Shown here one piece after another: positions 9,937 through 59,834 of a stretch of 64,000 nt of DNA. The notes under the pieces are model-generated. The model was not told the origin of the DNA, ran no database searches, and was given only the letters and a program-made list of their open reading frames with translations. The stretch is from contig PLZO01000034.1 of assembly GCA_003152165.1 (NCBI GenBank), positions 2,264 to 66,263 on the forward strand, given 5' to 3'. Made by a program: the position numbers and the translations under genes. Source of the stretch: Chloroflexota bacterium. Lineage in GTDB: Bacteria; Chloroflexota; Limnocylindria; Limnocylindrales; CSP1-4. Position 1 is the stretch's first letter. Every line of letters starts with the position of its first letter.

Positions 9937-10190
9937 CCCAGCCGCCCTCCGACGTCGCTGTCATTGGCGGAGGCATCGTCGGTGTCGCGACGGCCGATCG
10001 CGCAACCCAGCCTGTGTCCGGATGCGCCGGAGGCTATCCGGCCAACTAGCACCCCGTCCCGCCAAATCGGCTAGTTCTGATGGGGGAGTGACTCGGGGTC
10101 ATCGAGGGGAAGACCGCGAGCGGTAGACTTGGCGTGCACGAGTGCGGGTTGGAGCCATGCCGACCCGGCGTGCCGGAGGAGGGGTGCGCT

Positions 10191-22300: not shown

Positions 22301-22389
22301 TTGGAGCGTTCGCGGCGAGCCGTGCGACCTGGATCCTCAGGATTCCCGCTGCTTCATACTGCCCGTCAGTCCCAGCCGTGAGGAGAGCC

Positions 22390-32260: not shown

Positions 32261-32302
32261 CGTGGCGCTGAAGCGACAAGAGACCGCCGGAGGTTCGATG
32301 CT

Positions 32303-37879: not shown

Positions 37880-38340
37880 CACCCGAACTTCAGCAGGTCG
37901 AAGCCGTCTCCGCCGCCAGCTTTAGGCGGGACGTTAGGGTCTGGTCAAAGCGGGTCGGCGTCGAGATCCGCGAGATTCGGCTTCGGCCCATGAAGCGAAA
38001 GGTCGCGTCGGCATCGTCAAGTGGCCGGCTCACGTTCGATGTCGGGCTTCTTACCGAGCCTGCCGATCGTCGAGCCGAGGTCGTCGTTCATGAACTCGTC
38101 CATCTGCGGGTCGGCAACCACGGCGTGCTATTCCGGAGCCTCGTCCGTGCTCACCTCGCTGAGCAACAGCTGGGTCACCGTCGACGCGACAGAACCCATG
38201 TGCCGCCTCGAAACGAGGTTCGAGCGCCTTCGCAGACGAGGGGCCGAGCTGGCGCAACGGGATTTGCAAAACCCGAGCAGGTACGTCTCGATTCGTGTCG
38301 TCATCGTTTGGGAACGTCAGAGAACAGGCCGACTCGGTAG
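37876..38340 (+). CDS. YgjP/DUF45-like metal-dependent hydrolase, C-terminal half only
   Basis: ...WSKRVGVEIREIRLRPMKRKVASASSSGRLTFDVGLLTEP...VVVHELVHLRVGNHG (HExxH). Family often accompanies type I R-M operons. N-terminal half absent and C-terminal tail looks degenerate. Confidence 0.55.
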   Translation: MTPELQQVEAVSAASFRRDVRVWSKRVGVEIREIRLRPMKRKVASASSSGRLTFDVGLLTEPADRRAEVVVHELVHLRVGNHGVLFRSLVRAHLAEQQLGHRRRDRTHVPPRNEVRAPSQTRGRAGATGFAKPEQVRLDSCRHRLGTSENRPTR

Positions 38341-40142: not shown

Positions 40143-40484
40143 GTGGCACCCGAAGGCTGGGCCGTCACGATAGACCCACTTATCGTTACAAGCGCGAGGG
40201 CCTTGCGGGCGGAGCAGGGTCCGCGGGGTATCGTCGGGCACAGCAATCATAGGCCCGTGCTTGCACAGTGCCTCGAGGTTCTCGTCAGGGGCGATCGTTG
40301 GCGATCGATGCCCTACGTCGCCGCGGCGGAGCTGGGCCGGGCATCGGAGTTCTTGAGGGTTGCAGATCCCGACACTCAGGCCGTGGCCGGGCGGATCGTG
40401 AAACTCCTCAGTGAGCAGGGCTTCCCCGACTACCGCGACCTGCTCCCGTCCGCCGGCGAATGTCGCTATTCACCCGTAGCGTGA
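40143..40484 (+). CDS. hypothetical protein
   Basis: 113-aa ORF, GTG 40143 after gaggagg. No recognisable motif. Convergent with and overlapping the 3' end of the GmrSD-like gene by 19 nt. Confidence 0.35.
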   Translation: MAPEGWAVTIDPLIVTSARALRAEQGPRGIVGHSNHRPVLAQCLEVLVRGDRWRSMPYVAAAELGRASEFLRVADPDTQAVAGRIVKLLSEQGFPDYRDLLPSAGECRYSPVA

Positions 40485-43438
40485 ACCTGGGGCTCGCTGG
40501 TGCCCACGCCAAGAGCTCGCTCGAGGTAGGCGATGGTTTCGGGGTCCCGCAACTTGCACGCCGGCATCTCGTTGGTGAACAGACCGGTCCGCCAGATCGC
40601 CCCGGTGATCGGGCGCGTCGCACTCCACTCCACCCGAACGAGGTACTCACGGAGGGCGGGGTCCTCAGCGTTATGCGACAGCTTCGCTCGGTCGACTAGC
40701 GGTGCCTCCAGGATCGGCACGGTCCGCCCGTCGACTTGGACGGCGTACTCAGTCACAGGTCGCAGCGCGTCCTTGACGATGCCGACGCCGACGTAACCCT
40801 GGACCGGGTACGGCTTGTAGAGGAACACGCGAGCCCCCGGAACGAGGTTCTCGAAGGGCTTCGAGTAAAAGGTGCCGCCGCCGGCGGAGACGAAACCGTA
40901 CCGCTCGGCATCCTCCCACGAGCGATCCCCGATCGTGACGTAGAAGTCGCGTCCATTCCACGGCGGCCGCGGCGTATCTTCGGTCGCTACCGTAACCGCG
41001 TCGGCCATCAGCTCCTCGAGGCGATCGACAATGGCCTCGATTTCTCGGGCATACAGCTGCGTCGGGCCGGCCGGCCCAAGGAGTCGCTCGACCGACGCTG
41101 GCTCAAGCCCAAAGAAGGTTTGGAACGCCTGGGCAGCGCACCAGAGGTCGACACGGTCGTCTCCGCGGATCGATAGCGTGAAGAGGGCCCGCGACCGGTT
41201 GGCCAGGGGCGCAAACATCAGGCTGCGCTTCCAGGGCCGTGGATAGAGGCCGCAGCTGACCGCGCCCTCAACCACCGCCAGAAGAGCGGTCCGAATGGCG
41301 GGGTCGTTCGCCTCGTCAACCACACGCTCGACCCCGACTCGCGACCATTGCAGCTCCTCGTGGCCGTCTTCGGTTTGCCGCTCGAACGATTGTCGGATGA
41401 GCGCCATGACGTCTTCGAGGTCGTCGAAGGTCACGAGACGTACCTCGACCCTCCCTGTGCCCCAGCGACCGACGCCGGTGACATCCCGACCGAGGCCCGC
41501 GGGGTCGTCGAGCTGGTCAATCGCAATGTCGAGATACAGCTTGAGATCGTTGAGCTGCGGAACGACCTCGACGAAGTTCGACGAGAACTTGAAAGCGATG
41601 TACTGCTTACGCACCTCCTCGAGGACGCCGGTATCGAGGTTGTAGATGCGCTTGCGAAGCTCGTCGTAGAGGGGGCCCAACGGGCCGCCGAGCGACGGGT
41701 GATCGTCCAGTGTGTACACGGCACCCGGTTTGGTCTTCCGGTACTTCGCCAGCGTTTCCTCTGAGAGCTTGGGCGCGGGCCAGATCTGGAGCGCCAGGTC
41801 GGCGAGCAGCTCGGCACGTTGCTGGATCTCCTGCTCATTCCAGTGGTCGAGTTTCGCGAGATACTGGTTGAGCCGAAGATGGCTGTCCCGGAACCCTCCC
41901 TTGATCGTCAACTTCTCGGCGAACGGCCTATCGCTGAGCTCCGAGTTGTACCCGGTTAGGGTCACGTTGCCAACCGTGTGCAGCCATCGCTCGTGCACCG
42001 CCTTCCAGTCGATCCCTAGTTCTTCCTGCCACTCCGGGGACAGGTCAGGGTTCTGGGGCATGACGTGCTCGATCGTGTAGCTGTCGACGTCGATTGGTTC
42101 CTTGTGGTCGAAGTTCTCGAGCTTACGCAGGAGGTAGTTGCGACTGCGGAAGTTGTAGACATCCTTGACGATGAAGGCGTTTCTGAACTCTTCGTCGGTT
42201 GGCATCCGAGCGTACGATTCCCTGAGCAGGAAGGCGGCCTTCAGACTCTCGACGTAGTGGGTCCCGTCGATCTCCGTCGCGAGCGCGGCAAAGGTCTTGT
42301 TGAGAATGTTGGTCGGGATTCCTGTGATCGCCCGACGAAAGACATAACTCTCCACGAGCCTGACGACCTCGATCAGCTCGGAATCATCGATCGTGCCGGT
42401 TTCGTGGTCGTGCAGGACGTCGAGGAGGAACGGATACGCGACATCAACCTTCAGCTGATTGAGATCAGCGATAGCGGCGTGGAGAACCATGTCCTCGGCG
42501 CGGCCGAAGGCGAGCTTGACCCAGTTCTTCGAGTGAGAGTAGGCGTCCGCGACGAGCTCCGCCTTGGATGACTCCTTCGCCCGATCCAGCAACTTGAAGC
42601 TCTCGTAGACGCGGTCGATCCGCGGGATCTGACCCGTCTTCATTGTCAGGTAGTCACGCATGAAGCGGTCGAATAGGTCCTGCTGGTCAGCCGGGAAGGA
42701 CTGCTCGAGCGGATACCACGACGTGGAGTAGATCTGGGCTTGTTCCTTGGACGGCAGACCCATGAGCACGTAGTTACGGATCAGGTCTGCCTGTGAGAGA
42801 TCGAGACCGGTCGAGTTCAGGCTCTCGAAAATGAGCTGCGGATTGTCGTGGTCGCGCTCAAGGGCGATGTCGACGATTAGCAGTTTCTCGATGCCCGTCA
42901 GCACGGATGGGAGCGGCAGGGTTGTCCGTCGCAACTGATCCACGAACAGGCGGTAGGTATCGACGAGTCTGGGCGCCTGGCCAGGATCGATCTCCCGACC
43001 GTCGACGAGCCGCATGAAGGTGTCGCGATCCCCTTTTGTGAGGAGGAGTTTGTAGCGAGCCTCGACACCCGCGTCCTCATCGTCCTCCTGCAGCAAGTAA
43101 TCCCTGACGATCCGATGGGCCGTCGCCTTTGACGCCTCCTCGCCTCCGTTGAGCGCGTGAGCCAGAGCAAGCAGAATGAGCGAGACCGTGGTCAGTCGTT
43201 GCTGACCATCGATGACTTCGATCCGATTCGATCCGGTTACGACGTAGATACCGGTATCGATGTAGACGATCGAGCCGACGAAGTGGGCGCCCACGTCTCC
43301 ACTCGAGGCGCGGACGATATCGCTCCAGAGTTGGTCGCACTGCTCGCGCGTCCAGCTGTACGTGCGCTGATAGATCGGAATCTCAAGCTGGTCGCTCTTC
43401 TTCAGAAACTTGAGGAAGTTGGCCTCGGCTGCTTTCAC
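40466..43438 (-). CDS. GmrSD-like type IV (modification-dependent) restriction endonuclease, DUF262 + DUF1524, with about 400-aa C-terminal extension
   Basis: N-terminal DUF262/ParB-like (IPIYQRTYSWTREQCDQLWSDI...IDGQQRLTTVSLIL), DUF1524 HNH-like (TIEHVMPQNPD...WLHTVGNVTLTGYN). C-terminal region contains a beta-rich module (WNGRDFYVTIGDRSWEDAERYGFVSAGGG...GYVGVGIV) of unknown function. Confidence 0.85.
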   Translation of the reverse strand: MKAAEANFLKFLKKSDQLEIPIYQRTYSWTREQCDQLWSDIVRASSGDVGAHFVGSIVYIDTGIYVVTGSNRIEVIDGQQRLTTVSLILLALAHALNGGEEASKATAHRIVRDYLLQEDDEDAGVEARYKLLLTKGDRDTFMRLVDGREIDPGQAPRLVDTYRLFVDQLRRTTLPLPSVLTGIEKLLIVDIALERDHDNPQLIFESLNSTGLDLSQADLIRNYVLMGLPSKEQAQIYSTSWYPLEQSFPADQQDLFDRFMRDYLTMKTGQIPRIDRVYESFKLLDRAKESSKAELVADAYSHSKNWVKLAFGRAEDMVLHAAIADLNQLKVDVAYPFLLDVLHDHETGTIDDSELIEVVRLVESYVFRRAITGIPTNILNKTFAALATEIDGTHYVESLKAAFLLRESYARMPTDEEFRNAFIVKDVYNFRSRNYLLRKLENFDHKEPIDVDSYTIEHVMPQNPDLSPEWQEELGIDWKAVHERWLHTVGNVTLTGYNSELSDRPFAEKLTIKGGFRDSHLRLNQYLAKLDHWNEQEIQQRAELLADLALQIWPAPKLSEETLAKYRKTKPGAVYTLDDHPSLGGPLGPLYDELRKRIYNLDTGVLEEVRKQYIAFKFSSNFVEVVPQLNDLKLYLDIAIDQLDDPAGLGRDVTGVGRWGTGRVEVRLVTFDDLEDVMALIRQSFERQTEDGHEELQWSRVGVERVVDEANDPAIRTALLAVVEGAVSCGLYPRPWKRSLMFAPLANRSRALFTLSIRGDDRVDLWCAAQAFQTFFGLEPASVERLLGPAGPTQLYAREIEAIVDRLEELMADAVTVATEDTPRPPWNGRDFYVTIGDRSWEDAERYGFVSAGGGTFYSKPFENLVPGARVFLYKPYPVQGYVGVGIVKDALRPVTEYAVQVDGRTVPILEAPLVDRAKLSHNAEDPALREYLVRVEWSATRPITGAIWRTGLFTNEMPACKLRDPETIAYLERALGVGTSEPQVHATGE

Positions 43439-43899
43439 CCGTGCTCCCTTGAGCTTCGACAGCGGCCGGGCGACATTCCGACCGGACCCTCAACGAGGTG
43501 AGCGCGGACCATGCTTCCTCGATCCCAGGCCTCGATCTGAGGGCGAATGGCATCTCGGTCCCAGGCGGCAAGCGCCTCAGCGAACGTTCGAGTCGAGACA
43601 GCCATCACAACCCCATGCGGTGCTCCCGTGCCAGCGCGGGAGCACTAGCTTACGCGACCGAGTTTAGACGGCGTCAGAGATCATTCGTGCCTAGCTTTCC
43701 GTTCACGCACAGCCGGAAGATCAAAGAGGCGACCTCAAAGGGAGGAGGCTCATGGCGATTGCCCACTCCGCCCAGGCGACCCCGAACGCGGCCGCATCCC
43801 GCTAGTCTTTGCCAGGCAGCGCAGCACGACGAGGCGCCTGAGTTCCTGGATCTCGGCGGTCGACAGCACTCGTGGTTGCCCCCGGATGTACAGAGGAAG

Positions 43900-44340
43900 G
43901 CCACGCCCGGAGACGATCCGAATGCCGGCCACGCTCCGGAGGAAGAAGGGCAGGTCAGCCCGGTGCGCACAGACGACCGGAATGACCCGCGACGAAACCC
44001 TCAGACGCCAGCGGGTCAAGGTGGTCCGCAGTCCGCTGCTCGCCCGCCGCTCCGGTCGCCCACGCCGTGGTCGACTGTCGGGGCACGATCGCTTCGAGCA
44101 GGTCCGCCGCCCACGAGCGCGTCCGACACCACCTCGCGGCCTCACTCTCGCCGAAGTCGCGCGGCTGCTCGCGGTCATCCCCGAGATACCGACGGGCTTG
44201 CTCGATCGCGTGGTCACCATCACGGCGCTCCTCACCGGGCTCCGCCGCACGGAGCTTCGGGATTTGCGCATCGTCGGCCTGGTACCCGGACAGGCCGCCC
44301 GCTACGAGGTCTCGACCAAGGGGAGTGGCCTCCGCGCTGG
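43900..44340 (+). pseudogene. tyrosine recombinase/integrase fragment
   Basis: ...RGLTLAEVARLLAVIPEIPTGLLDRVVTITALLTGLRRTELRDLRI... = start of the catalytic domain of phage-type integrases. Truncated after about 70 aa and N-terminal domain degraded. Confidence 0.45.
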
Positions 44341-44388
44341 GGACTCCCGGCTCCCGCGTAGCAGGCCACCCTAGCCGCCAGGCTCGCC

Positions 44389-44778
44389 TTGGGCCGGGGC
44401 GTCGTGTGGGCGGCGGCCGATCGGACGGATCTTCTCCCAATTACCCTGAATAAGTCGGACACCGATTACTCCGTTACCACCAGGTACGACGACTACCCAA
44501 TCTCGCAGACCCGATTTCATTGGGAATCTCAGTCATGGACCGCGACAGCCTCTCCGACCGGGCAGCGATACATCAACCACGTCGCGCGCGGGTCGAAGGT
44601 CGTCCTCTTCGTGCGAAAGAGCCGCCCCGACGAGCGTGACGTGACTGGTCCGTATCTCTCATTGGGTCTAGCGCGGCACGTCGGTCACAAATCAGACCCA
44701 CCTATGCAGATCGACTGGGAACTTGACCGACTGATGCCGGTTGAGATCTACGAACACGCCAGGGTTGCTGCTGGGTAG
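44389..44778 (+). pseudogene. DUF3427-like C-terminal fragment (remnant of a PLD-helicase-DUF3427 type III-like restriction protein)
   Basis: ...FHWESQSWTA...QRYINHVARGSKVVLFVRKSRPDERDVTGPYLSLGLARHVGHKSDPPMQIDWELDRLMPVEIY resembles the C-terminus of DUF3427 domains. No upstream helicase/PLD part is present. Confidence 0.35.
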
Positions 44779-44896
44779 ATAGCCGCGAAAATAGGCCTAC
44801 CTCCAGCCCTGGATGCATCCCGGCAGCCGCGCGAGCCGTGTACCTTTGGGGCAGCTCTACCTTGCCTATCGGCCGAAATCGCAGGAGGGACGATCG

Positions 44897-45673
44897 TTGA
44901 CCACGTTCGAGCAGGGCTTCGAAGACACGGAGCGCGCCGCTGATGCAGCCGCGAAAGCCGTGGGGAGCCTTCTTGCCGCGGCCAAGCAGCTCAAGAAGGC
45001 TGCCCACGAAGGGGACACCGGGGCGATCCGCAAGTCCTCGGAACGCCTGGGCCTCGCGATCGACGCGGTCCGCCAGGAAGTGGTGAACGCGCGTGGCACG
45101 TGGCCGTTCGGCGAGGACGCTGAGGACGAGTATTTGAGGAATGAATACGAGTCGGAGCTGATGGCGGCTGCGCGCGCGTCGGGGCTGCGCATGGATCAGC
45201 GCGATGGCCGCCTGCTCGCGTTCCCATCGATCGTGCGCGTTATCCCGGCCGATAGGTCTCTTCGGATCGACCGAAAACGGGTTCTGTCGATCCGGCCGTC
45301 TCGGATCATTGCGGCGCTGAAGGCCAATCAGACGAAGAAGCCGCGGTTCGCGCCGGATAGGTTCCTCGAGTCCCTGTTCCGCGCCTATCGCTTGATTGCT
45401 GGCCCAGACACTCAAGGCTCGACCCAAGCCTTGGCCGACGTCTACGAGGCCTTCACGCTACTGCCCGGTGCGACTGCCGAATATGGGCAGAGTGACTTTG
45501 CAAGGGATCTTTTCATCCTCGATCGAAGTGGTCTAACCAGAACAAAGTCGGGTGCCTCGTTCTCATTGCCCGCGAGCACGGGCACGAAAGGCGCGAAGGG
45601 AACCTTCACGTTCGTCGCCCCTGAAGGCGAATTGATCACCTACTTCGGCGTATGGTTCGGGCCGGCGTTGTGA
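44897..45673 (+). CDS. hypothetical protein, first gene of BrxD-like four-gene operon (gene A)
   Basis: TTG 44897 after caggaggga (ORF track extends to ATG 44813). Helical N-terminus, no known motif. Stop overlaps start of gene B (GTGA). Confidence 0.55.
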   Translation: MTTFEQGFEDTERAADAAAKAVGSLLAAAKQLKKAAHEGDTGAIRKSSERLGLAIDAVRQEVVNARGTWPFGEDAEDEYLRNEYESELMAAARASGLRMDQRDGRLLAFPSIVRVIPADRSLRIDRKRVLSIRPSRIIAALKANQTKKPRFAPDRFLESLFRAYRLIAGPDTQGSTQALADVYEAFTLLPGATAEYGQSDFARDLFILDRSGLTRTKSGASFSLPASTGTKGAKGTFTFVAPEGELITYFGVWFGPAL

Positions 45674-46647
45674 CCCTCTCGATGGGCGCTGATGCCTGGG
45701 TTGAGTTTCTCGAGTCGGAATACATGGCCAGTTTCATCAAGGACGGTGGCTCCGCGATCAAGTTCGCGGTCCCGCTCGACGGGGACGCTGCTGGTGCCCT
45801 ATCCAACGCCATCGACGAGCGCGCAACTCAACTCGGCTACGTCGTCGCTGGCGTCGATTCCGCCTTGACGCGGGTGCACATGGTCGACCAGTTGTTCTTC
45901 TCGGTAGCCGAGCAGGTCCCTTGGCGCGAGACAGTCGAGCGTGTCGTGGCCCGTCTGGCCGAAGCCGAGCGATACGCTCCGGCTACGTCAGGTGACGGAC
46001 CCTTGTTTCGGCGATTAGCCGAGGCGAACGACCTTGATCCGGATTTTCTGCTCATGAACCTGCGTCGCAAGATCGAGTCCCACGTCTTCCGCCATAAGGG
46101 CATGGCAAAGGATTTTCGTGTCGCGATGACCCAACTCGCGGTCGCCGAACTCGCGGGGGCACAGGAGGCCACGACGGTTCATAGCGTTCTGACCGATTGG
46201 CTCTGCGGACGCAATCGAGCGGTCAGCGCGGTCAAGCCGTACCACATCTTCACCCGAATCAATCGTACGAACGCTCGCTACTTTTTCGAATCGCTTCTGG
46301 TGTGGCTGGCGTTTGCAGGGTACTCAGGTCTGATCCTCACGCTCGACATCAGCCGTCTCTCCGTGGTTCGGAACCCGCGAGATGAGCGCGTCTATTACAC
46401 CAAGGCGGGCGTACTCGACGCCTACGAACTCCTCCGCCAATTCATCGATGGCACGGACCGACTCGAACATTGTTTGATCGTCGTTGTGCCCGATCCGGCT
46501 TTTCTTGACGAGGACCTCAACGGGCGCGGGATCGGTGCCTACGAGGCCCTCAAGTTTCGCGTTTACGATGAGGTTCGCGATCGAACGCTCGTCAATCCGA
46601 TGGCGTCTTTGGTTCGCCTAACGCGATCCGAGGGGGAAGCCCAATGA
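45670..46647 (+). CDS. hypothetical protein, gene B. Possible degenerate P-loop/Walker-B-like paralogue of the BrxD-like ATPase
   Basis: About 325 aa. DGGSAIKFAVPLDG (degenerate P-loop-like), LILTLDISRL (Walker-B-like hhhhD). Stop overlaps start of gene C (ATGA). Confidence 0.6.
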   Translation: MTLSMGADAWVEFLESEYMASFIKDGGSAIKFAVPLDGDAAGALSNAIDERATQLGYVVAGVDSALTRVHMVDQLFFSVAEQVPWRETVERVVARLAEAERYAPATSGDGPLFRRLAEANDLDPDFLLMNLRRKIESHVFRHKGMAKDFRVAMTQLAVAELAGAQEATTVHSVLTDWLCGRNRAVSAVKPYHIFTRINRTNARYFFESLLVWLAFAGYSGLILTLDISRLSVVRNPRDERVYYTKAGVLDAYELLRQFIDGTDRLEHCLIVVVPDPAFLDEDLNGRGIGAYEALKFRVYDEVRDRTLVNPMASLVRLTRSEGEAQ

Positions 46648-47963
46648 CCAGCAACCTGGCGAGTATCCCGGATCGACGCGCGATTGAAGCCTTAAGAAAC
46701 GGTGTTCCGAACCGAGATGCGGTTCGAGTTCTCGGCTGCAACCAGCCCGACGTGGAGGCGCGGTTCTCAGCCCAGCTCTCCGGAGTTCCGGCGGCGACCG
46801 ACGCCGATAGTCAGGTCCCCGGAATGCTTGTGGCCGGTGGCTTCGGCAGTGGCAAGTCCCACTTGCTCGAGTACCTCGAGCACCTCGGGCTGTCCGAAAA
46901 CTTTGTCGTCAGTCGAGTGGTCATCAGCAAGGAGACGCCGCTCTTCGACCCCGCCAAAGTATTCCGAGCAGCCGTTGAATCCGCTTCTGTCCCAGGTCAA
47001 ACTGGCATAGCGATCCCAGAGGTTGCCCTTCGACTGCGGCCGGATTCCCATTCATATGCCAGCCTGTACAAGTGGGCGAATCACCCGGATTCCAATATGG
47101 CGGCGATCTTTCCCGCGACCCTGATGCTCCATGAGCGTCTGAATAACGACCCAGAGCTGACCGAACTGATCCAGAATTTCTGGGCGGGTGATCCCCTTCC
47201 AATCGCGAAGCTGCGTGATGGGCTTCGACAGATTGGGGAGGCGGCGGCGTTTTCCCTCAAGGCCGTCAAAGCCAAGGAACTCACGGAGCAGAGGTTTCGG
47301 TTTGTCGCTCGCCTGATGCAGGGAGCCGGTTACCGGGGCTGGATCCTGCTGATTGACGAAGTGGAACTCGTCGGCCGGTACAGCCTTGTACAGCGCGGCA
47401 GGTCCTACGCGGAGCTGGCCCGCTGGATGGGCAAGATCGAAGGCCTACAAATCCCCGGGATCACCACGGTAGCGGCGATCACGGACGACTTTGCGTTGGC
47501 TGTCCTGAAAAGGAAGGGCGATGGCGACTACGTAGGGCCCAGGCTTCGCGACAAAGGTACCGATGAGTACCTCGCGTTGGCGCCGCGAGCCGAGGCCGGG
47601 ATGAGGATCATCGAGCGCGACGCAATAACGCTCCAACCCCCAACCGAAGAGATGCTTCTCGAGACGTACGAGCGACTGAAGGGCATTCATGCGCGCGCGT
47701 ACACGTGGGACCCACCTTCCATCGCAGCTGCTGACCTTGCAATGCGCCGAGCAATGCGTTCTCACGTCCGTCGTTGGATGAACGAATGGGACCTCAAGCG
47801 ACTCTACCCGGGCGCATCCGTTAGCACCGAGGAGCAGGAGTTGCGCCCGACCTACGAGGAGGACGTCGTGCTCGAAGAGCAGTCGCCCGACGACGAGGAG
47901 CGCGAGGTGAAGCCCGACGTAGGCTATGAGGCTCTGATCCGCGCCTTGGAGGAACAGCCCTGA
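46644..47963 (+). CDS. BrxD (DUF2791)-like P-loop ATPase, gene C
   Basis: 439 aa. N-terminal AIEALRNGVPNRDAVRVLGCNQ motif, Walker A VAGGFGSGKSHLL, Walker B GWILLIDEVELVG. Matches BREX BrxD family, but no pglZ/pglX/brxC in the window. Confidence 0.8.
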   Translation: MTSNLASIPDRRAIEALRNGVPNRDAVRVLGCNQPDVEARFSAQLSGVPAATDADSQVPGMLVAGGFGSGKSHLLEYLEHLGLSENFVVSRVVISKETPLFDPAKVFRAAVESASVPGQTGIAIPEVALRLRPDSHSYASLYKWANHPDSNMAAIFPATLMLHERLNNDPELTELIQNFWAGDPLPIAKLRDGLRQIGEAAAFSLKAVKAKELTEQRFRFVARLMQGAGYRGWILLIDEVELVGRYSLVQRGRSYAELARWMGKIEGLQIPGITTVAAITDDFALAVLKRKGDGDYVGPRLRDKGTDEYLALAPRAEAGMRIIERDAITLQPPTEEMLLETYERLKGIHARAYTWDPPSIAAADLAMRRAMRSHVRRWMNEWDLKRLYPGASVSTEEQELRPTYEEDVVLEEQSPDDEEREVKPDVGYEALIRALEEQP

Positions 47964-48016
47964 GCATTCCGTTTCGCGACCTGCGGGAAGAGGCGCCCCG
48001 AGGTCTGATTGGGTAT

Positions 48017-48502
48017 TTGAAGTTCGTCGAAGAAGCCGAGTTCCGAGGAATGCGAGGTGCCTTATTCGTCGTCAACAGCCGGGCTGAGCCCCTCGACTTC
48101 AGTTTTGCCCGGATCGACATCCACGCGTCCTTTCTGTGGCGGGCCGGGGAACTGAAGCGCCAAGCTGTCGCGGCGCTGATGCGCACGCTTTTTACAGCCG
48201 CGATCCACGTCCCGGATCTGCTGATCGCATTGGCAGATGAGGTACCCCCAACGATCTTCGCCGAGGACCTCGCCGTCATGATCGCGGTCTGTCGGGTGGC
48301 TGGCGCAGGTGCGCTGGCCTACGCCTCAACGGAGGCCCTCGAGGAACTGCCCGATGCGCAGCACATCTTCTGGGCGGGCCCACCCCCGGTTAGCGGCTCG
48401 GTCGTTCGCGAGTTGTTGGACGCGCTGGTGGCTCGCGGCGGACTGATCGAGCCATTTGATCGGGCTGAACTGGGTCTTGGGGAGGCCTACGCATCGAGCT
48501 GA
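48017..48502 (+). CDS. hypothetical small protein, gene D
   Basis: 161 aa (alternative ATG 48050). No recognisable motif. 54 nt downstream of gene C. Confidence 0.5.
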   Translation: MKFVEEAEFRGMRGALFVVNSRAEPLDFSFARIDIHASFLWRAGELKRQAVAALMRTLFTAAIHVPDLLIALADEVPPTIFAEDLAVMIAVCRVAGAGALAYASTEALEELPDAQHIFWAGPPPVSGSVVRELLDALVARGGLIEPFDRAELGLGEAYASS

Positions 48503-48822
48503 GCAGCTGGTGGCGCGACCGGAGGCCGCCCGAGCGCGCGAACTGGTGGAGTCGACGGCGGCGAGCGACGCCTGAGCCAGCTTTACATTGGGCGCTCCTG
48601 TCAACCACGCCTTTGCCGGCCTCGACGCAGCGCATCGAATTGGGGGGCACCACTCAGGCTGCCTGGCTGCTAACGAGGGATCGCGTAGCCGAAGTTACGG
48701 GTTCGACCGTCCGGATCGATGTCAGACCTCTAACGACAGGGCAGATTTCCGGCCGAACCTCCGGCGCCCAGCGAGACTCGGAAATGGCAACTGGGGCTCG
48801 TCCGGAGGCAAAGGAGTCTGAG

Positions 48823-50634
48823 ATGTCCCTCACGGATCGCCTCAGACTTGTGCTCGCTCCGCCTCTCGAGAGTTTCCTGCCCGGATCCGGGACTGCGCTC
48901 GAATGGCCCGCCGACCTCCTGCCTTTTCAACTCGAAGGCGTCAGAACCCTGATCGGCTCGGATCGACTGCTCCTCGCTGACGACATGGGCCTCGGGAAGA
49001 CCGTTCAGGCGATTGCGGCGATGAGGGTTCTGTGCCACCAAGGGGTCGTGACACACGCTTTTCTCGTCGTGCCTGCAAGCCTGCTGGACCAATGGCGACG
49101 AGAAATCGACAAATGGGCGCCAGAACTCCGAGCAATCATCGTCCGGGGAAGCCCAACCGAGCGCGCCTGGCAGTGGCGGGCCGAGGCGCACGTGACGCTC
49201 GTTGGTTACGAAACCCTCAGGGCCGATTACACAGAGAATCCTGACTCGCCCCCGCGTCGCCGCCTTTGGGATCTAGTCGTTCTAGACGAAGCGCAGAAGA
49301 TCAAGAATCGCGACGTCGAAGTCAGTCGGGAAACGAAGGGTCTACGAAGGCGGCGGTCCTGGGCGATGACCGGCACCCCGCTTGAGAACAGAATCGACGA
49401 TCTCGCCTCGATCCTCGAGTTTGTCGACCACATCGACGGTGAGCCGGTACCGCATTTCGTTCCAGGCCCCGAATTGCTCGCCCGGCACGCTGAACTTCAG
49501 CTACGGCGCCGCAAGGCGGACGTACTTACTCAACTACCTCCGAAGCAGGTGATCGATATCACTCTGCCCTTGTTGCCGCGACAACAGGAGACCTACGCGA
49601 GAGCTGAGCGAGATGGGATTGTTGAGTTGACCGCGAAGGGTGAAACGATTCAGATCCAGCACGTTCTTGCCCTGATCACTCGGCTCAAGCAAATCTGCAA
49701 TATCGACCCAACGTCGAACGAGTCCGCCAAGCTATCAGACGTCCGCGAGCGGCTGCGGGTGCTCGGCGAGGAAGGTCACCGAGCACTCTTGTTCTCCCAA
49801 TACACCGACGACACCTTCGGCGTAGCCGCAATCGCCCGCGAACTTGACGAGTTCCGCCCCCTGACGTTTACCGGGGGAATGAGTAGTGCCACCAGAGACC
49901 AGACCATCCGAGACTTCAAGGAGGATCCGCTTCGCAAGATCCTGATCCTGTCGCTCAAGGCAGGTGGCGTTGGCTTGAACCTGCAAGAAGCCTCGTATGT
50001 CTTTCACATCGATCGGTGGTGGAACCCGGCCGTTGAGCGACAGGCAGAGGATCGAACTCACCGAATGGGTCAATTGGTCCCCGTCACGGTATTCAAGTAC
50101 ACCTGCGAAGCCACAATTGAAGAGCGAATACAAACGATCCTCGCGACCAAGCAGCAGCTCTTCGATGAGATCATCGACGATGTGAGTCTCGACGTGGCTT
50201 CACGACTGACTTCGGATGAGTTGTTTGGGCTATTCGGACTCACGAGGCCGGGCAAGACGCCTGACCCGGACCCGACCAAGCGATCGTCCGGCGTGGAGTT
50301 CGAGGAGCGATGCGCACGGGTTCTTGAGGCTCGGGGTTGGAAGGTCACACGGACCCCGCGGAGCCGGGACGGGGGTGTCGATCTGATCGCGGACCACGTC
50401 GACGAGGTCGGACTCGCACAAAGGCTCTTCGTGCAGTGCAAGGATCACGCCCGCCCTGTCGGGGTCGAAGTGGTTCGAGAACTGATTGGGGTTCTACCCG
50501 CGGGCCAGCCAATTCATGCAATCCTCGCCGCTCGGAGCGGAGTCACAGCTGATGCTCAGGCGCTTGCCAATCGCCGAGGAGTGAAGGTTTGGGACGAGGA
50601 CGAGCTCGCGAACCTCGAACGTCAAGGCACTTAG
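48823..50634 (+). CDS. SNF2-family helicase fused to C-terminal Mrr-like (Mrr_cat) restriction endonuclease domain
   Basis: ATG 48823 after aaggag. SNF2 motifs LADDMGLGKTVQ, DEAQ (VVLDEAQKIKN), QAEDRTHRMGQ. C-terminal ...GWKVTRTPRSRDGGVDLIADHVDEVGLAQRLFVQCKDHARPVGVEVVREL = Mrr catalytic core. Confidence 0.85.
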   Translation: MSLTDRLRLVLAPPLESFLPGSGTALEWPADLLPFQLEGVRTLIGSDRLLLADDMGLGKTVQAIAAMRVLCHQGVVTHAFLVVPASLLDQWRREIDKWAPELRAIIVRGSPTERAWQWRAEAHVTLVGYETLRADYTENPDSPPRRRLWDLVVLDEAQKIKNRDVEVSRETKGLRRRRSWAMTGTPLENRIDDLASILEFVDHIDGEPVPHFVPGPELLARHAELQLRRRKADVLTQLPPKQVIDITLPLLPRQQETYARAERDGIVELTAKGETIQIQHVLALITRLKQICNIDPTSNESAKLSDVRERLRVLGEEGHRALLFSQYTDDTFGVAAIARELDEFRPLTFTGGMSSATRDQTIRDFKEDPLRKILILSLKAGGVGLNLQEASYVFHIDRWWNPAVERQAEDRTHRMGQLVPVTVFKYTCEATIEERIQTILATKQQLFDEIIDDVSLDVASRLTSDELFGLFGLTRPGKTPDPDPTKRSSGVEFEERCARVLEARGWKVTRTPRSRDGGVDLIADHVDEVGLAQRLFVQCKDHARPVGVEVVRELIGVLPAGQPIHAILAARSGVTADAQALANRRGVKVWDEDELANLERQGT

Positions 50635-50685: not shown

Positions 50686-51942
50686 GTGACCAGTGACTTC
50701 TCCTGGCTCGACTACTCGGCGCGGGACCAGAGGCTCATGCTGGAGCTGATCGATCAGATCCGCGAGCCGGGCACCCTCGACGAGCTCGGCCTCGGCACCA
50801 TCCGCGACGGGTTCGCCGACTACCTATTCCCTGGCGTCAGCACACTGCAGACGCGGGCCCGGTATCTACTCTTCATCCCCTGGATTTTCCGGCAGCTGGA
50901 GGATGACCGACAGGTCTCCAGCGCCGTCATCGGCCGCCTATCTCGGGACCGGCAGGCGGACCTCGTGGACGCGCTCGAGAACGGGAACGAGTCCGAGGGC
51001 GTCATCGGGATCTCCGCCCGACGAAGACTTCGGCGACCGCCTGCTGACATCTACTGGGGCGCGCTCGGTCAGTACGGGATCAGGCGCTATCCCGGGTCAC
51101 TTGGCGCGTACTTCGCGTGGATCGATCGGTGGCGCGAGGGACACGTCCGTTTCAGGCAGACTCGCCGCGGCGACGGCGGCGAGCTGGTCGACGTCTCCGA
51201 GCCGAACTGGCACGCCCTGCCAAACCGACCTTCTGACCTGCTCACCGAAGCCACCTTCGCGCTGTCGTCCGAAGAGGCGCGGTTCCTCGGGGAGAGGATC
51301 CTCCTGTCCTGCCCGGGATCGCTGCTAGCGTATTGTCTGCGAAACAGGGACGTAACCCTCCAGGCCATCGAGCGCCCCGCCGACATTCCCGGGCTCGACG
51401 GGGAATTGGCGTCCGTGGCCCGCGAATCTGGCAACTTCGCTCGCGTGCTTCGGGGCGCAATGCTCCTTTACAACCTCATGCTTGCAGAGCAGCGTCACGA
51501 GGACGCCGATCCGAACGCCGCATCCCGCGCCCAGGATGCGGACCGGATCGAACGATTCCGGGCGAGGTTGGGTGAGTGGGCTGCCCTTGAGATCTCACCG
51601 CGACTCGGGGAGCTTCGGACGTGGCTTTCCAGCGGCACTTTCCGCGCCATGGTCCCGATGATTGCCTCCAGATCCGGGCAGGCGGCCGACTTCGCGAACG
51701 ACTGGATCAGCATCGCGTTGGTCGATCCGAGCGTCCTCGCAGACAACCCTGCTGCCCGTGCCGCCGTGAGCCACCGCGAGCGAAGGGTCAAACGCCTGCG
51801 TTCGCGCTTCGCCAACGCCACTGCCCTCGCGAACTGGAGCGGGGGCTCCGGGACAGGCGAAATGACCTACCGCTGGACCAACGCTCGGTTGCTTCTGACG
51901 GACATTGCTGCGGGGATTGCCCAGGAGCGCGTGGGTGGCTGA
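50686..51942 (+). CDS. hypothetical protein (418 aa), no recognised domain
   Basis: GTG 50686. Conserved-looking N-terminus SWLDYSARDQRLMLELIDQIREPGTLDELGLGTIRDGFADYLFPGVSTLQTRARYLLFIPWIF. Stop overlaps start of PLD gene by 8 nt. Confidence 0.6.
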   Translation: MTSDFSWLDYSARDQRLMLELIDQIREPGTLDELGLGTIRDGFADYLFPGVSTLQTRARYLLFIPWIFRQLEDDRQVSSAVIGRLSRDRQADLVDALENGNESEGVIGISARRRLRRPPADIYWGALGQYGIRRYPGSLGAYFAWIDRWREGHVRFRQTRRGDGGELVDVSEPNWHALPNRPSDLLTEATFALSSEEARFLGERILLSCPGSLLAYCLRNRDVTLQAIERPADIPGLDGELASVARESGNFARVLRGAMLLYNLMLAEQRHEDADPNAASRAQDADRIERFRARLGEWAALEISPRLGELRTWLSSGTFRAMVPMIASRSGQAADFANDWISIALVDPSVLADNPAARAAVSHRERRVKRLRSRFANATALANWSGGSGTGEMTYRWTNARLLLTDIAAGIAQERVGG

Positions 51943-53851
51943 GGGCACTCTCACGGGTGCGGAGCGCGATTCCTCTCCCGTGCTCCAGCCTCGCCACCGG
52001 GGGCTCCTATTCGAGGCGTTGCGGCCGCCCGCCGGATATCAGCTCGAACGAGCCGTCGGGACGACGTTCACGCTCGACCTCCTCGCGCTGCTCGTGCCAC
52101 CGGTGGCATTCGCCAACTTCGATACCGAGGGCGTCGACGGCACGCCGCTGGCGAATCCTGTCGCCATCTTTGAGGCCGCCCGTCGCAACGCTCCTTTGAT
52201 CACGGTGTTCTGCCAAGCGGGCGAGATCCGTGTCCCCGCCTTCCGACCCGAGTTCGCCTTCCTTGAGCAGGCGGTAGTCGCGGTCAGGCCGCCTCGACCC
52301 GGCGGCATCTTCCACCCGAAGGTCTGGGTGGTCCGCTACGGACCAACGGCCGAGCTCCGTGCCGCCTCGAGTGCTGGGCTGCGCTACCGGTTCCTTTGCC
52401 TATCGCGGAACCTGACCTTCGATCACTCGTGGGACACGCTTCTTCGGCTTGATGGCGTTGCAGCATCCAAGCCCAGATACGTGAACCGGTCGCTCTCCGC
52501 ATTCGTGCGGGCACTCCCTGGGCTCGCCGTCCAACCGATCGGAGACCGAGGTCGGGCAGTGGGTGAGCTCGCCGGTGACCTCGAGACCGTGGATTGGGAC
52601 CGGCTGCCAGATCCGCTGCGGCTCTCGTCGTTCTGGCCCATGGGGCTCGACGGGCGTGCGCCAGCACCTTTTGGCAGCCATCCCGACGGTCGGATGCTGG
52701 TGGTGTCTCCATTTGCGACCGGAAGAGCACTCGACGCTCTCCTCCGAGGTCGCCCCGATTCCGTGCTCGTCACGCGCGCGTCGACCTTGCGTGCCCTGGG
52801 CCGCGAGGGTGTGGCACCTGCCGAGCGGACGTGCGTGCTCCAGCCGGGTCTCGCGATGGCCGCCGACGATGACGAGGCAGGGGCGGGGCCACAGACGGTC
52901 GAGGCATCCGACCTCCAGGATCTCCACGCCAAGCTGTACGCGATTGACACGCCTGAAGGCGCCCGGGTGTGGACCGGCTCAGCCAATGCGACTGATGCCG
53001 GGTTCGGGGGCAACGTCGAGTTCCTTGTCGAGATGCGCTCGGCGGACTCGCGGCACACGGTCGCGGCCATGCTCGAGCCCGGTCCTCCCGACGAGCCGAG
53101 TTTTGGCAGCATGCTCGAGGACTGGGCGGTCCAGGGTCAGCCTGAGGAGGAGACGGAGGCCGACAAGGCCGATCGGACGCTCGGGGCGATCGCAAGGGTA
53201 CTGGGCGGGCTGGACTGGCAGGCACGGGTACGCCGGACAGGTGACGACAAGTTCACCGTGGCGGTGAGGGCGAGCGGGGCCGGCCTGCCCATCAAGCTGC
53301 CCGGCCTGACGGCCTCCCTCAACATGATGGCGTCCGACGGCCGACCGGGCGAAGCTATCAACCTCCGCGCCCGGACGGTCCGCTCGTCGTTCAACTGCAC
53401 GTTCCAGCACCTAAGCGCGTTCTTCGCGGTCCGCCTCCACTTGGCGACCGGCACAGCGGAGAGGACCCGATCGATCCTGATCGTCACGGAGTTTGTCGGG
53501 GCGCCCGCTGACCGTCTCGCCCGCCTCCAGGCGGCGGGCCTCCGGGGCGACGGCTTCTACCGCCTCATGCTCCTCCTCCTTGGGGCTGCGGACCCAACCG
53601 GTGGAGACGCCGTCGAGCTGAACAATGGGGGCGGGTGGTTCGGATCACCCACCTCCTCACCCGGCGGCCAGGAGACGCTGCTGGAGCCGTTGCTTCAGAT
53701 GCTGGCAAGGGCGCCCGAGCGTCTCGATGAGCTTGAGAAGGTGCTTGCTGGTCTGCGTCGGACGCCCGAGGGCAGGAACATACTGCCGCCCGGCTGGACC
53801 GACCTTTGGGATGCCGTGACCACGGCCAGGCGGGGGAGACGCCGCCCGTGA
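51935..53851 (+). CDS. phospholipase D-family nuclease with two HKD motifs (648 aa)
   Basis: HKD-1 GIFHPKVWVVRY, HKD-2 LHAKLYAIDTPEGARVWTGSANATDAGF. Long non-PLD N- and C-terminal regions. Stop overlaps helicase start (GTGA). Confidence 0.8.
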   Translation: MAEGTLTGAERDSSPVLQPRHRGLLFEALRPPAGYQLERAVGTTFTLDLLALLVPPVAFANFDTEGVDGTPLANPVAIFEAARRNAPLITVFCQAGEIRVPAFRPEFAFLEQAVVAVRPPRPGGIFHPKVWVVRYGPTAELRAASSAGLRYRFLCLSRNLTFDHSWDTLLRLDGVAASKPRYVNRSLSAFVRALPGLAVQPIGDRGRAVGELAGDLETVDWDRLPDPLRLSSFWPMGLDGRAPAPFGSHPDGRMLVVSPFATGRALDALLRGRPDSVLVTRASTLRALGREGVAPAERTCVLQPGLAMAADDDEAGAGPQTVEASDLQDLHAKLYAIDTPEGARVWTGSANATDAGFGGNVEFLVEMRSADSRHTVAAMLEPGPPDEPSFGSMLEDWAVQGQPEEETEADKADRTLGAIARVLGGLDWQARVRRTGDDKFTVAVRASGAGLPIKLPGLTASLNMMASDGRPGEAINLRARTVRSSFNCTFQHLSAFFAVRLHLATGTAERTRSILIVTEFVGAPADRLARLQAAGLRGDGFYRLMLLLLGAADPTGGDAVELNNGGGWFGSPTSSPGGQETLLEPLLQMLARAPERLDELEKVLAGLRRTPEGRNILPPGWTDLWDAVTTARRGRRRP

Positions 53852-57509: not shown

Positions 57510-57734
57510 TCTCTGCCTCGGAAGCCTGTATTGGCCTGGCGCGGGGAAGAACAGGCGTTATGGTTGCCCTTCACCCGGAAATGGCCTGGTGGCACACGAG
57601 ATGGATGTCGGCGCGCCTGAAGGCCTGCTCCACGGGTACACGCGGAGCAGGTAGCCGTTCGCCTTCGACGTTGTCGTGGTGGACTCGACCAAGTCCTACA
57701 TGTCGTTGTGCTTGCCGCCGGTCTTAGAGGTCTG

Positions 57735-59816: not shown

Positions 59817-59834
59817 TGCAAGGCGGGGGGTCAT

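What the first reader, a model, noticed from the sequence alone, without database searches (positions are those of the whole stretch)
44813..48502. BrxD-like P-loop ATPase embedded in a translationally coupled four-gene operon with no BREX core genes: candidate undescribed defence module
Gene C (46644-47963) carries the N-terminal EALRNGVP motif and the Walker A/B of BrxD (DUF2791), a protein so far tied to type 2 BREX (pglW-X-Y-Z-brxD-brxHI). Here it is preceded by two unrelated proteins (A, about 258 aa; B, about 325 aa with degenerate P-loop/Walker-B-like motifs, possibly an inactive paralogue) and followed by a 161-aa protein. The A/B and B/C junctions are GTGA/ATGA overlaps. No PglZ, PglX, BrxC/PglY or PglW is present anywhere in 64 kb. 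The operon sits inside a defence island and directly upstream of an SNF2-Mrr gene, echoing the brxD-brxH adjacency. I cannot match the four-gene composition to any named system (BREX, DISARM, Druantia, Zorya, Septu, Menshen, Shango, etc.).
Basis: partly seen in the sequence, partly recalled or inferred. Interest (0 to 1): 0.8.

Follow-up and report, generated by a model that had tools for sequence, protein, structure and literature searches.

The report
Unnamed five-gene BrxD-like defence module
A tightly packed five-gene operon recurs in hundreds of uncultured soil and sediment bacteria without any BREX genes: an unknown protein, a dead and a live BrxD-type ATPase, a small nuclease-fold protein and a helicase-nuclease, which makes it a credible but untested new anti-phage system.

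Summary
It is a five-gene operon at 44897-50634 (+):
- A: 258 aa, from a large family with no annotation.
- B: a PF10923 ATPase paralogue lacking Walker A.
- C: a PF10923 ATPase with intact Walker A and B.
- D: 180 aa with an RNase H / endonuclease V-like fold. It starts at a CTG that overlaps C's stop.
- E: an SNF2 helicase fused to an Mrr nuclease.

In 122 related loci the order A-B-C is invariant (89/89 for B, 77/77 for C, where the contig is long enough).
- In a divergent metagenomic clade, D follows in 29/30 loci and the SNF2 gene in 25/25. No sixth gene is conserved.
- In an Acidobacteria subclade, D and E are missing. A ParB-like gene sits beside A-B-C in 13 loci, directly upstream in 12 of them.

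No PglZ, PglX, PglY or PglW lies in the 64 kb window, in about 10 kb beyond either end, or in any related locus.

B and C pass the Pfam threshold for PF10923 but score far below the BrxD equivalog cut-off. A and D match nothing in Pfam, NCBIfam, PADLOC or PHROGs, and no paper describing the module was found.

Best reading: an unnamed BREX-related defence module without a methyltransferase. An A/B/C ATP switch would recruit or load a helicase-nuclease effector. The defence role and the mechanism are inferred, not shown.

The parts
44897..45673 (+). Gene A, 258 aa. Founding member here of a large unannotated family. It has an N-terminal long helical hairpin, a beta-meander, a helical region and a C-terminal beta-sheet. 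A conserved flexible loop SLPASTGTKG is encoded at 45563-45592.
45670..46647 (+). Gene B, 325 aa from the GTG that overlaps A's stop (alternative start ATG 45652). A catalytically dead PF10923 (BrxC/BrxD-type, ORC/Cdc6-like AAA+) paralogue. The degenerate P-loop region GGSAIKFAVP is at 45745-45774 and the degenerate Walker B LILTLDIS at 46330-46353.
   Evidence: Pfam PF10923 2.9e-12; PADLOC BrxD 4.7e-11; NCBIfam BrxD 40.5 bits against a cut-off of 350. Motif conservation in 35 orthologues. hhalign of B against C aligns the Walker B regions, E 7e-4.
46644..47963 (+). Gene C, 439 aa. A predicted active PF10923 ATPase. N-terminal AIEALRNGVP at 46680-46709, Walker A GGFGSGKSH at 46836-46862, Walker B LLIDEVE at 47346-47366, and an acidic C-terminal tail.
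   Evidence: Pfam PF10923 2.1e-18; PADLOC BrxD 1.9e-14 and SngB 8e-8 (P-loop region only); NCBIfam BrxD 54.9 bits against a cut-off of 350. Motifs conserved in 36 orthologues. ATGA overlap with B.
47960..48502 (+). Small protein with an RNase H-like, endonuclease V-like fold. Conserved acidic residues are D7, E43, E94, D103, E164 and E175.
48499..50634 (+). Gene E, an SNF2-family helicase fused to a C-terminal Mrr-type PD-(D/E)xK nuclease. It is 711 aa from CTG 48499, which overlaps D's stop; alternative starts are TTG 48613 (673 aa) and ATG 48823 (603 aa, as called on sister contigs). Helicase motif I DDMGLGKT at 48979-49002, motif II LDEAQ at 49282-49296, nuclease motifs GGVDLIAD at 50371-50394 and VQCKD at 50431-50445.
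   Evidence: Pfam SNF2-rel_dom 3.3e-45, Helicase_C 8.6e-19, Mrr_cat 1.8e-25. PADLOC ZorD 2.6e-71 and DpdE 4.6e-64. The N-terminal extension aligns with L006 (43%, E 2e-28), L004 and L039. Homologues carry ATG at the -4 position. The gene follows A-B-C(-D) in 8 of 42 and 25 of 25 loci. It co-diverges with A, C and D.

Best explanation
This is a self-contained five-gene module, most likely for anti-phage or anti-plasmid defence, and it is related to BREX only through its ATPases.

Proposed mechanism:
- A, B and C form the invariant core. B (dead) and C (live) are ORC/Cdc6-type AAA+ proteins of the BrxC/BrxD family. They would assemble into an asymmetric ATP-driven switch on DNA.
- A is a family-specific protein with a coiled-coil hairpin and would act as adaptor or sensor.
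- When the core recognises foreign DNA, it recruits, loads or releases the effectors encoded downstream.
- E is an SNF2 translocase fused to an Mrr-type nuclease. It would track along the DNA and cut it.
- D is an endonuclease V-like protein. It would nick the DNA or provide an entry or recognition site.
- There is no methyltransferase, so self/non-self discrimination cannot be BREX-like methylation.

Shown here: gene content, order, coupling, domain identities, motif integrity, conservation, co-divergence and the absence of BREX genes.

Inferred only: complex formation, the loader role, nuclease activity of D and E, and the defence function itself.
For: Conservation:
- A-B-C occurs in this order in 41/41 GTDB loci and, in metagenome loci with enough sequence, B in 48/48 and C in 36/36.
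- In the metagenomic clade D follows in 29/30 and the SNF2 gene in 25/25. No sixth gene is conserved.
- Identity to the window proteins co-varies across loci: Spearman A-E 0.58, C-E 0.64, D-E 0.62, all p<=7e-4.

Operon structure:
- Start and stop codons overlap or nearly touch at all four junctions, here and in homologues.

Modularity, as in known sensor-plus-effector defence systems:
- The Mrr domain is absent in 9 loci and degenerate in 2.
- D and E are absent in the Acidobacteria subclade. There a ParB-like protein matching PADLOC PDC-M38A and PD-Lambda-5_A lies beside A-B-C in 13 loci, directly upstream of A in 12 and downstream of C in one.

Predicted activities:
- C has conserved Walker A and B motifs and B lacks them.
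- E has intact helicase and Mrr motifs.
- D has an RNase H/EndoV-like fold with invariant acidic residues.

Context:
- The window copy lies between GmrSD and Azaca, with a type I RM system upstream.
- L006 is flanked by an HNH protein, Mrr and a NERD-UvrD helicase. L004 has SIR2 and NERD genes downstream.
- In L039 the five genes are bounded by what appear to be housekeeping genes: pyruvate dehydrogenase E1-type genes downstream by Pfam, and upstream a protein that looks like an isocitrate or isopropylmalate dehydrogenase by eye.
- The module is patchily distributed across Chloroflexota, Acidobacteriota, Bacillota, Eremiobacterota and Pseudomonadota at 33-79% identity.

Precedent:
- BrxD forms a tightly linked dyad with the BrxHI helicase in type 2 BREX and has been proposed to load it (PMC12839542).
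Against: - There is no experimental evidence of defence for any member.
- All relatives come from uncultured organisms.
- Roughly half of the GTDB loci carry A-B-C alone among housekeeping genes, with no recognisable nuclease. Either the core acts with effectors encoded elsewhere, or it works without cutting DNA, or its function is not defence.
- A has no recognisable fold relative, so its sensor or adaptor role is a guess.
- The catalytic geometry of D was not verified. The AF2 model lacked the N-terminal 19 residues, which include the invariant Asp7.
- The CTG start codons for D and E are inferred from homology only.
- DefenseFinder and PADLOC releases later than v2.0.0 could not be run.
Confidence: 0.6

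Rival explanations
1. It is a fragment or degenerate remnant of a type 2 BREX (Pgl) system: brxD plus a helicase left behind after the loss of pglW, pglX, pglY and pglZ.
For: B and C best match the BrxD models in PADLOC and NCBIfam. The ATPase-next-to-helicase layout echoes brxD-brxHI. The island contains other decayed genes, including a DUF3427 remnant just upstream.
Against: No PglZ, PglX, PglY or PglW is present in 64 kb, in about 10 kb beyond either end, or in any of 122 related loci. C scores 54.9 bits against the BrxD equivalog cut-off of 350. E is an SNF2 helicase fused to Mrr, not the Ski2/Lhr-like BrxHI. The five genes are intact, coupled and conserved as a unit across phyla.
Confidence: 0.02
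2. Two independent units lie side by side by chance in a defence island. SNF2-Mrr, with or without D, would be a stand-alone type IV-like restriction enzyme, and A-B-C would be a separate system.
For: A-B-C occurs without D and E in most Acidobacteria loci. SNF2-nuclease fusions do exist as solitary defence genes. Gene callers on sister contigs start E 320 nt after D.
Against: The SNF2 gene follows A-B-C(-D) in 25/25 metagenome loci and in 8 GTDB loci from four phyla, always on the same strand and in the same order. Its divergence tracks that of A, C and D. Its reading frame is open from D's stop, with ATG at -4 in many homologues. In L039 the five genes are bounded by what appear to be housekeeping genes.
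Confidence: 0.08
3. It is a divergent Shango-type system (TerB protein, ATPase, helicase), with A standing in for SngA.
For: C hits the PADLOC SngB model at 8e-8. Both systems combine an ATPase with an SF2 helicase and a small accessory protein.
Against: The SngB match covers only 38 residues around the P-loop. A and D have no TerB hit and no other Pfam or PADLOC hit. No SngC model appears among E's 25 best PADLOC hits, which are dominated by ZorD, DpdE and DrmD. Shango has neither a dead ATPase paralogue nor an EndoV-like protein (my own knowledge of Millman et al. 2022).
Confidence: 0.05
4. It is not an immune system. It could be a horizontally mobile DNA-repair, replication-restart or chromatin-remodelling module of soil bacteria, with an ORC-like loader, an SNF2 remodeller and an EndoV-like repair nuclease.
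For: Many A-B-C loci sit among housekeeping genes with no mobile-element or defence neighbours. Endonuclease V and SNF2 proteins such as RapA have housekeeping roles. No relative was found in viral contigs.
Against: The distribution is very patchy: 42 of 185,579 species representatives for the window-like clade. Similar sequences occur across distant phyla. Effector genes are swapped or lost. The Mrr restriction-nuclease fusion and the ParB-like partner match defence models. The window and its closest relatives lie in defence islands.
Confidence: 0.15

Closest known systems
BrxD-BrxHI dyad of type 2 BREX (Pgl)
   Same: A stand-alone ORC/Cdc6-type AAA+ ATPase of Pfam PF10923 is encoded next to an SF2 helicase. 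The proposed logic is that the ATPase loads or activates the helicase (PMC12839542). BrxD is the best-scoring named model for both B and C.
   Different: There is no PglZ, PglX, PglY or PglW and no methyltransferase. There are two ATPase paralogues, one of them dead, rather than one. The helicase is SNF2 fused to Mrr rather than Ski2/Lhr-like. Proteins A and D are additional. C scores far below the BrxD equivalog threshold (54.9 against 350 bits).
DUF499-centred BREX-related (BR) systems (Rakesh & Krishnan, NAR 2026)
   Same: A BrxC-like ORC/Cdc6 ATPase is combined with a Swi2/Snf2 helicase that carries a fused PD-(D/E)xK or HKD nuclease as effector.
   Different: BR systems always include an N6-methyltransferase and use DUF499. 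This module has no methyltransferase, uses PF10923 paralogues, and adds A and an EndoV-like protein.
ZorD effector of type I Zorya
   Same: E's best PADLOC hits are ZorD models described as 'SWI2/SNF2 helicase, Mrr-like nuclease' (2.6e-71). In both cases a helicase-nuclease effector is presumably recruited by a separate sensor complex.
   Different: No ZorA, ZorB or ZorC is present. E is 600-710 aa, against about 1,000-1,200 aa for ZorD, and matches only the ZorD C-terminal half. NCBIfam ZorD scores 144 bits against a cut-off of 1500.
Shango (SngABC)
   Same: A three-part logic of accessory protein, ATPase and helicase. There is a weak P-loop match of C to SngB.
   Different: No TerB domain, no SngC-like helicase hit, and the extra components B and D.
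Endonuclease V / UPF0215 (DUF99) family
   Different: There is no sequence-level hit to any Pfam family. D is shorter, at 180 aa against about 220-240 aa. Catalytic residue equivalence has not been established.

Membership tests
Type 2 BREX / Pgl | PglZ alkaline-phosphatase-fold protein present in the locus | tested here: not met
   No PglZ hit among all large ORFs of the window. None on the flanks of sister contigs. No conserved extra gene in 122 related loci.
Type 2 BREX / Pgl | PglX methyltransferase, PglY/BrxC large ATPase and PglW kinase-nuclease | tested here: not met
   All stop-free frames of at least 450 codons are accounted for by other families or have no hit. The only methyltransferase is the type I HsdM at 32303-33844.
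Type 2 BREX / Pgl | BrxD orthologue (NCBIfam NF033438 equivalog, cut-off 350 bits) | tested here: not met
   C scores 54.9 bits and B 40.5 bits.
Type 2 BREX / Pgl | BrxHI (Ski2/Lhr-like) helicase adjacent to BrxD | tested here: not met
   E is SNF2-rel_dom plus Helicase_C plus Mrr_cat. Its PADLOC BrxHI hit (2.8e-24) is far weaker than ZorD or DpdE.
Pfam PF10923 BrxC_BrxD (ORC/Cdc6-like AAA+) | Score above the Pfam gathering threshold of 22.2 bits | tested here: met
   C scores 66.9 bits and B 46.7 bits. Precomputed PF10923 hits are also recorded on orthologues in L001-L005.
Pfam PF10923 BrxC_BrxD (ORC/Cdc6-like AAA+) | Intact Walker A (GxxGxGKS/T) and Walker B (hhhhDE) | tested here: met
   Met for C: GGFGSGKSH and LLIDEVE are conserved in 36 sequences. 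Not met for B: it has no GKS/T, and its Walker B reads LTLDIS.
Shango | TerB-domain protein SngA | tested here: not met
   A and D have no Pfam or PADLOC hit at E<=0.01.
Shango | SngB ATPase and SngC helicase orthologues | tested here: inconclusive
   C matches SngB at 8e-8 over residues 61-98 only. SngC is not among the 25 best of E's 47 PADLOC hits.
Zorya type I | ZorA/ZorB MotAB-like membrane complex and ZorC | tested here: not met
   No such hit for any gene scanned from 24 kb onwards, nor for the 10134-12542 frame. The other ORFs of the first 24 kb were scanned with Pfam only and gave no flagellar-motor-type hit. Related loci hold no such conserved gene.
Zorya type I | ZorD equivalog (NCBIfam NF041790, cut-off 1500 bits) | tested here: not met
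   E scores 144 bits. The PADLOC ZorD match covers only the C-terminal half of the model.
Azaca (adjacent system) | ZacA (DUF6361), ZacB and ZacC present and linked to the module | tested here: not met
   ZacABC are present at 50686-57141 (E from 1e-109 to 0). tblastn with ZacA finds nothing in any related locus. Azaca is therefore a neighbour, not a part of the module.
Endonuclease V family (for protein D) | Endonuclease V fold with catalytic Asp/Glu/Asp and the lesion-recognition wedge | tested here: inconclusive
Known or candidate systems in PADLOC-DB v2.0.0 | All components match models of one system | tested here: not met
   A and D have no hit, B and C hit only BrxD, and E hits generic SNF2 effector models. 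DefenseFinder and later PADLOC releases were not available.

The most novel reading that the evidence does not exclude
A-B-C would be a previously unrecognised, self-sufficient DNA-sensing immune switch. It would consist of a live/dead pair of ORC/Cdc6-type ATPases and a sensor protein with no recognisable fold relative. It would plug into interchangeable effectors: EndoV-like D with SNF2-Mrr, SNF2 alone, or a ParB-like protein. It would discriminate foreign DNA without any modification enzyme. Because it is a stripped-down version of the BrxD-helicase pairing, it would also reveal what BrxD does in type 2 BREX.
Probability: 0.35. Interest if true: 0.75.

Novelty: new variant of a known kind. 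Interest (0 to 1): 0.62.

Why it matters
1. It defines a candidate defence system that current annotation misses. At least 591 loci were confirmed in metagenomes for one clade alone, and the A family has 872 clusters at 50% identity. All members are in uncultured soil, sediment and groundwater bacteria, which phage-defence screens based on E. coli or Bacillus do not sample.

2. The role of BrxD in type 2 BREX is unknown. Here a BrxD-type ATPase, duplicated into a live/dead pair, is coupled directly to a helicase-nuclease without methyltransferase, PglZ or PglW. That makes the proposed helicase-loader or activator role testable in a five-gene context.

3. Protein A is a large, well-folded family (pLDDT 90.8) with no detectable relative among solved structures.

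4. The swapping of effectors around a fixed A-B-C core gives a natural experiment on sensor-effector modularity.

Tried and rejected
- A profile search of A against PDB sequences gave nothing. C and the ParB-like protein gave no match to any PDB sequence.
- A viral-contig scan with the A alignment found no relative.
- The broad alignment of divergent A sequences (A4) was too variable for pattern scanning. I replaced it with one clade (A5).
- Housekeeping-like gene clusters recurring near A-B-C (an SDR, a GFO/IDH oxidoreductase, GGT, an FtsX-type permease) were judged coincidental. This rests on their variable position and strand, and on their sequences read by eye rather than by an HMM scan.
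- Sigma-70 promoter and intrinsic terminator scans across 44.3-51.0 kb were no better than shuffled controls.
- Literature searches for DUF2791, BrxD, PF10923, Shango/SngB, and ORC/Cdc6 with SNF2, Mrr or EndoV found no description of this module.
- I considered and rejected a link between SNF2-Mrr and the downstream Azaca system. ZacA is absent from all related loci.
- No remaining question depended on it.

Full report
**1. What is in the sequence**

- Gene A. It has 771 homologues, almost all about 257 aa, and a GGAGGG ribosome-binding site upstream. These fix its start at TTG 44897, giving 258 aa.
- A/B junction. A's stop overlaps a GTG (GTGA, 45670-45673), which gives a B of 325 aa.
- B/C junction. 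B's stop overlaps C's ATG (ATGA, 46644-46647).
The D frame is open from 47930. The peptide SIPFRDLREEAPRGLIGYL, which forms the conserved N-terminus of D homologues, is encoded immediately after C's stop. The only start-like codon there is CTG 47960, in a CTGA overlap. This segment contains an Asp that is invariant in 37 sequences.
- Gene E. The same CTGA arrangement links D's stop to the SNF2-Mrr frame at 48499. The 114 residues encoded upstream of the usually annotated ATG 48823 align with L006 (43%, E 2e-28) and more weakly with L004 and L039. Many homologues have ATG at this -4 position.
- Conclusion. The unit is five genes at 44897-50634, with overlapping or abutting stop and start codons throughout. 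The CTG starts are inferred from homology and have not been shown experimentally.

**2. Domain identities**

- C hits Pfam PF10923 (BrxC_BrxD) at 2.1e-18, PADLOC BrxD at 1.9e-14 and NCBIfam BrxD at 54.9 bits.
- B hits the same models more weakly: PF10923 at 2.9e-12.
- Both exceed the Pfam gathering threshold of 22.2 bits. Both are far below the NCBIfam BrxD equivalog cut-off of 350 bits. They are therefore family members but not BrxD orthologues.
- In 36 orthologues, C keeps Walker A (GGFGSGKSH) and Walker B (LLIDEVE). In 35 orthologues, B has no Walker A and a degenerate Walker B.
- Profile-profile comparison of B and C is weak (E 7e-4) but aligns the Walker B regions. The two are ancient paralogues, not a recent duplication.
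- E carries SNF2-rel_dom, Helicase_C and Mrr_cat, with intact helicase and nuclease motifs. Its best PADLOC hits are ZorD and DpdE.
- A and D hit nothing in Pfam, NCBIfam, PADLOC or PHROGs.

**3. Structure predictions**

- D's conserved acidic residues D7, E43, E94, D103, E164 and E175 are compatible with an active site. Equivalence with the endonuclease V catalytic residues was not established.
- A (pLDDT 90.8) has a long N-terminal helical hairpin, a beta-meander, a helical region and a C-terminal sheet. It also has a conserved flexible loop, SLPASTGTKG.

**4. Conservation elsewhere: species-representative genomes**

- A scan of 185,579 species-representative genomes with an A alignment returned 42 loci. 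All are metagenome-assembled genomes from Acidobacteriota (mainly Bryobacterales), Chloroflexota, Bacillota, Eremiobacterota and one Pseudomonadota.
- A-B-C is present in this order in all 41 loci that have downstream sequence.
- The SNF2 gene follows in 8 loci, counting the window itself. D lies between C and SNF2 in 5 of them.
- In 13 Acidobacteria loci a 333-aa protein accompanies A-B-C. It lies directly upstream of A in 12 of them, with stop and start overlapping in L001, and downstream of C in one (L009). Its N-terminal domain matches PADLOC PDC-M38A (3e-16), PD-Lambda-5_A and PHROG ParB-like families.
- The remaining loci have A-B-C alone among what look like housekeeping genes. That reading of the flanking proteins was made by eye and by Pfam for a subset.

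**5. Conservation elsewhere: metagenomes**

- The A family is much larger than these 42 loci suggest. It has 872 representatives at 50% identity with E<=1e-3, and the listed matches are almost all stand-alone proteins of 250-290 aa, apart from truncated fragments.
- A metagenome scan with a divergent clade (32-41% identical to window A) confirmed at least 591 loci.
- Among the 80 loci fetched, where the contig was long enough, B was present in 48/48, C in 36/36, D in 29/30 and SNF2 in 25/25. Order and strand were always the same.
- Clustering all ORFs in these loci found no sixth conserved gene.
- Identities of A, C, D and E to the window proteins co-vary across 30 loci (Spearman 0.58-0.70, p<=7e-4).
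- The Mrr domain on E is facultative. It is intact in the window and in about 20 other loci, absent in 9, and degenerate in L046 and L047.

**6. Not BREX and not Azaca**

- Every stop-free frame of at least 450 codons in the window was scanned with Pfam. Most were also scanned with PADLOC, but several in the first 24 kb were not. None is PglZ, PglX, PglY or PglW.
- The window derives from contigs of a wood metagenome that are up to 115 kb long.
- The 10 kb beyond the 3' end encodes small hypothetical proteins, an ADP-ribosylglycohydrolase/phosphatase fusion, an HD_4 protein and a NERD-UvrD helicase.
- The 10 kb beyond the 5' end encodes alanine racemase, a DUF3558 protein and a transposase.
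- Azaca (ZacABC, 50686-57141) begins 52 nt after E. ZacA has no match in any related locus, so Azaca is a neighbour and not a component.

**7. Mechanism**

- I commit to a sensor/loader-plus-effector model.
- B (dead) and C (live) would form an asymmetric ORC/Cdc6-like ATP switch on DNA, with A as adaptor or specificity subunit.
- The complex would recruit, load or release the SNF2-Mrr translocase-nuclease. The EndoV-like D would nick DNA or create an entry site.
- The supporting analogy is the BrxD-BrxHI dyad, for which a helicase-loading role has been proposed (PMC12839542).
- A second analogy is the DUF499-centred BREX-related systems, which combine a BrxC-like ATPase with an SNF2-nuclease.
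- Every mechanistic step here is inference. A-B-C also exists without D and E, so the core must either have activity of its own or use partners encoded elsewhere.

**8. Novelty and score**

- No library available here names this gene set, and no paper found describes it.
- Most of its parts belong to known kinds: a PF10923 ATPase, an SNF2-Mrr fusion and an RNase H fold. Its general logic resembles known ATPase-helicase-nuclease defence systems.
- I therefore rate it a new variant of a known kind that contains one novel protein family (A).
- Interest is 0.62. It is a well-supported, widespread, unnamed candidate system and a simplified context in which to study BrxD-type ATPases. Against that, it is untested, and new defence systems of this general kind are reported frequently.

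Noticed in passing
window 50686-57141 (+): A complete Azaca system lies immediately downstream of the module: ZacA/DUF6361 at 50686-51942, ZacB (PLD-like) at 51905-53851 and ZacC (helicase) at 53806-57141. PADLOC E-values run from 1e-109 to 0. The ZacA/ZacB and ZacB/ZacC ORFs overlap.
   Followed up: partly
window 40466-43438 (-): A 990-aa GmrSD-type type IV restriction enzyme (GmrSD_N plus GmrSD_C). It has an added DUF5655 domain and a C-terminal region matching the PADLOC candidate PDC-S11.
   Followed up: no
window 29981-38340 (+): A type I RM operon: hsdM 32303-33844, hsdS 33825-34997 and hsdR 34994-37879. It is preceded by a 759-aa protein with no Pfam hit and a weak PADLOC 'mad2' match (1.4e-14). 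It is followed by a YgjP-like metallopeptidase at 37876-38340. This could be a MADS-like or otherwise extended RM variant.
   Followed up: no
window 43886-44778 (+): Decayed genes lie directly upstream of gene A. One is a 129-aa C-terminal fragment of a DUF3427 protein at 44389-44778 (Pfam 3.9e-17, matching only positions 164-278 of a 280-position model). The other, at 43886-44374, looks by eye like a tyrosine-recombinase fragment but has no Pfam hit. Together they suggest past insertion and decay at this site.
   Followed up: partly
window 57708-63365 (+): A gene pair: a 702-aa GIY-YIG_2 protein at 57708-59816 and a 1,176-aa SF1 helicase with an RNase_H_2 domain at 59835-63365. The helicase gives partial PADLOC MkoA/MkoC hits. 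The GIY-YIG protein has no PADLOC hit, so this may be another unnamed defence pair.
   Followed up: no
window 47960 and 48499: Two consecutive genes (D and E) appear to start at CTG inside a CTGA stop-start overlap. Homologues carry ATG or GTG at the same -4 position. The closest relative, L006, also has CTG at -4 for D. Two non-canonical starts in a row in one operon is unusual.
   Followed up: partly
L047 3514-8397: In an Eremiobacterota MAG, gene C is split by an insertion of about 3.7 kb. The halves lie at 3514-4122 and 7873-8397. In its sister locus L046 the gene is intact. In both loci the Mrr motifs of E are degenerate.
   Followed up: no
L001 9003-10004 and 12 other Acidobacteria loci: A 333-aa protein with a ParB-like N-terminal domain accompanies A-B-C where D and E are missing. 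It hits PADLOC PDC-M38A at 3e-16 and PD-Lambda-5_A. It lies directly upstream of A in 12 loci and downstream of C in L009. Its stop overlaps A's start in L001. It may be an alternative partner or effector.
   Followed up: partly
L006 7718-9834 and 15920-18711: The closest relative of the module, in a Chloroflexia MAG, is flanked upstream by a 485-aa HNH protein carrying a DGQHK motif and by a 220-aa protein that looks like a uracil-DNA glycosylase by eye. Downstream lie an Mrr_N-Mrr_cat enzyme and a NERD-UvrD helicase. This is a second defence-island context.
   Followed up: partly
window 13625-15016 and 22018-23547 (+): A lone terminase large subunit gene (Terminase_6N/6C) sits among metabolic genes. 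Separately, one ORF begins with an IS110-family Transposase_20 fragment and continues into a creatinase/M24 peptidase. Both are signs of old mobile-element activity in the left half of the window.
   Followed up: no
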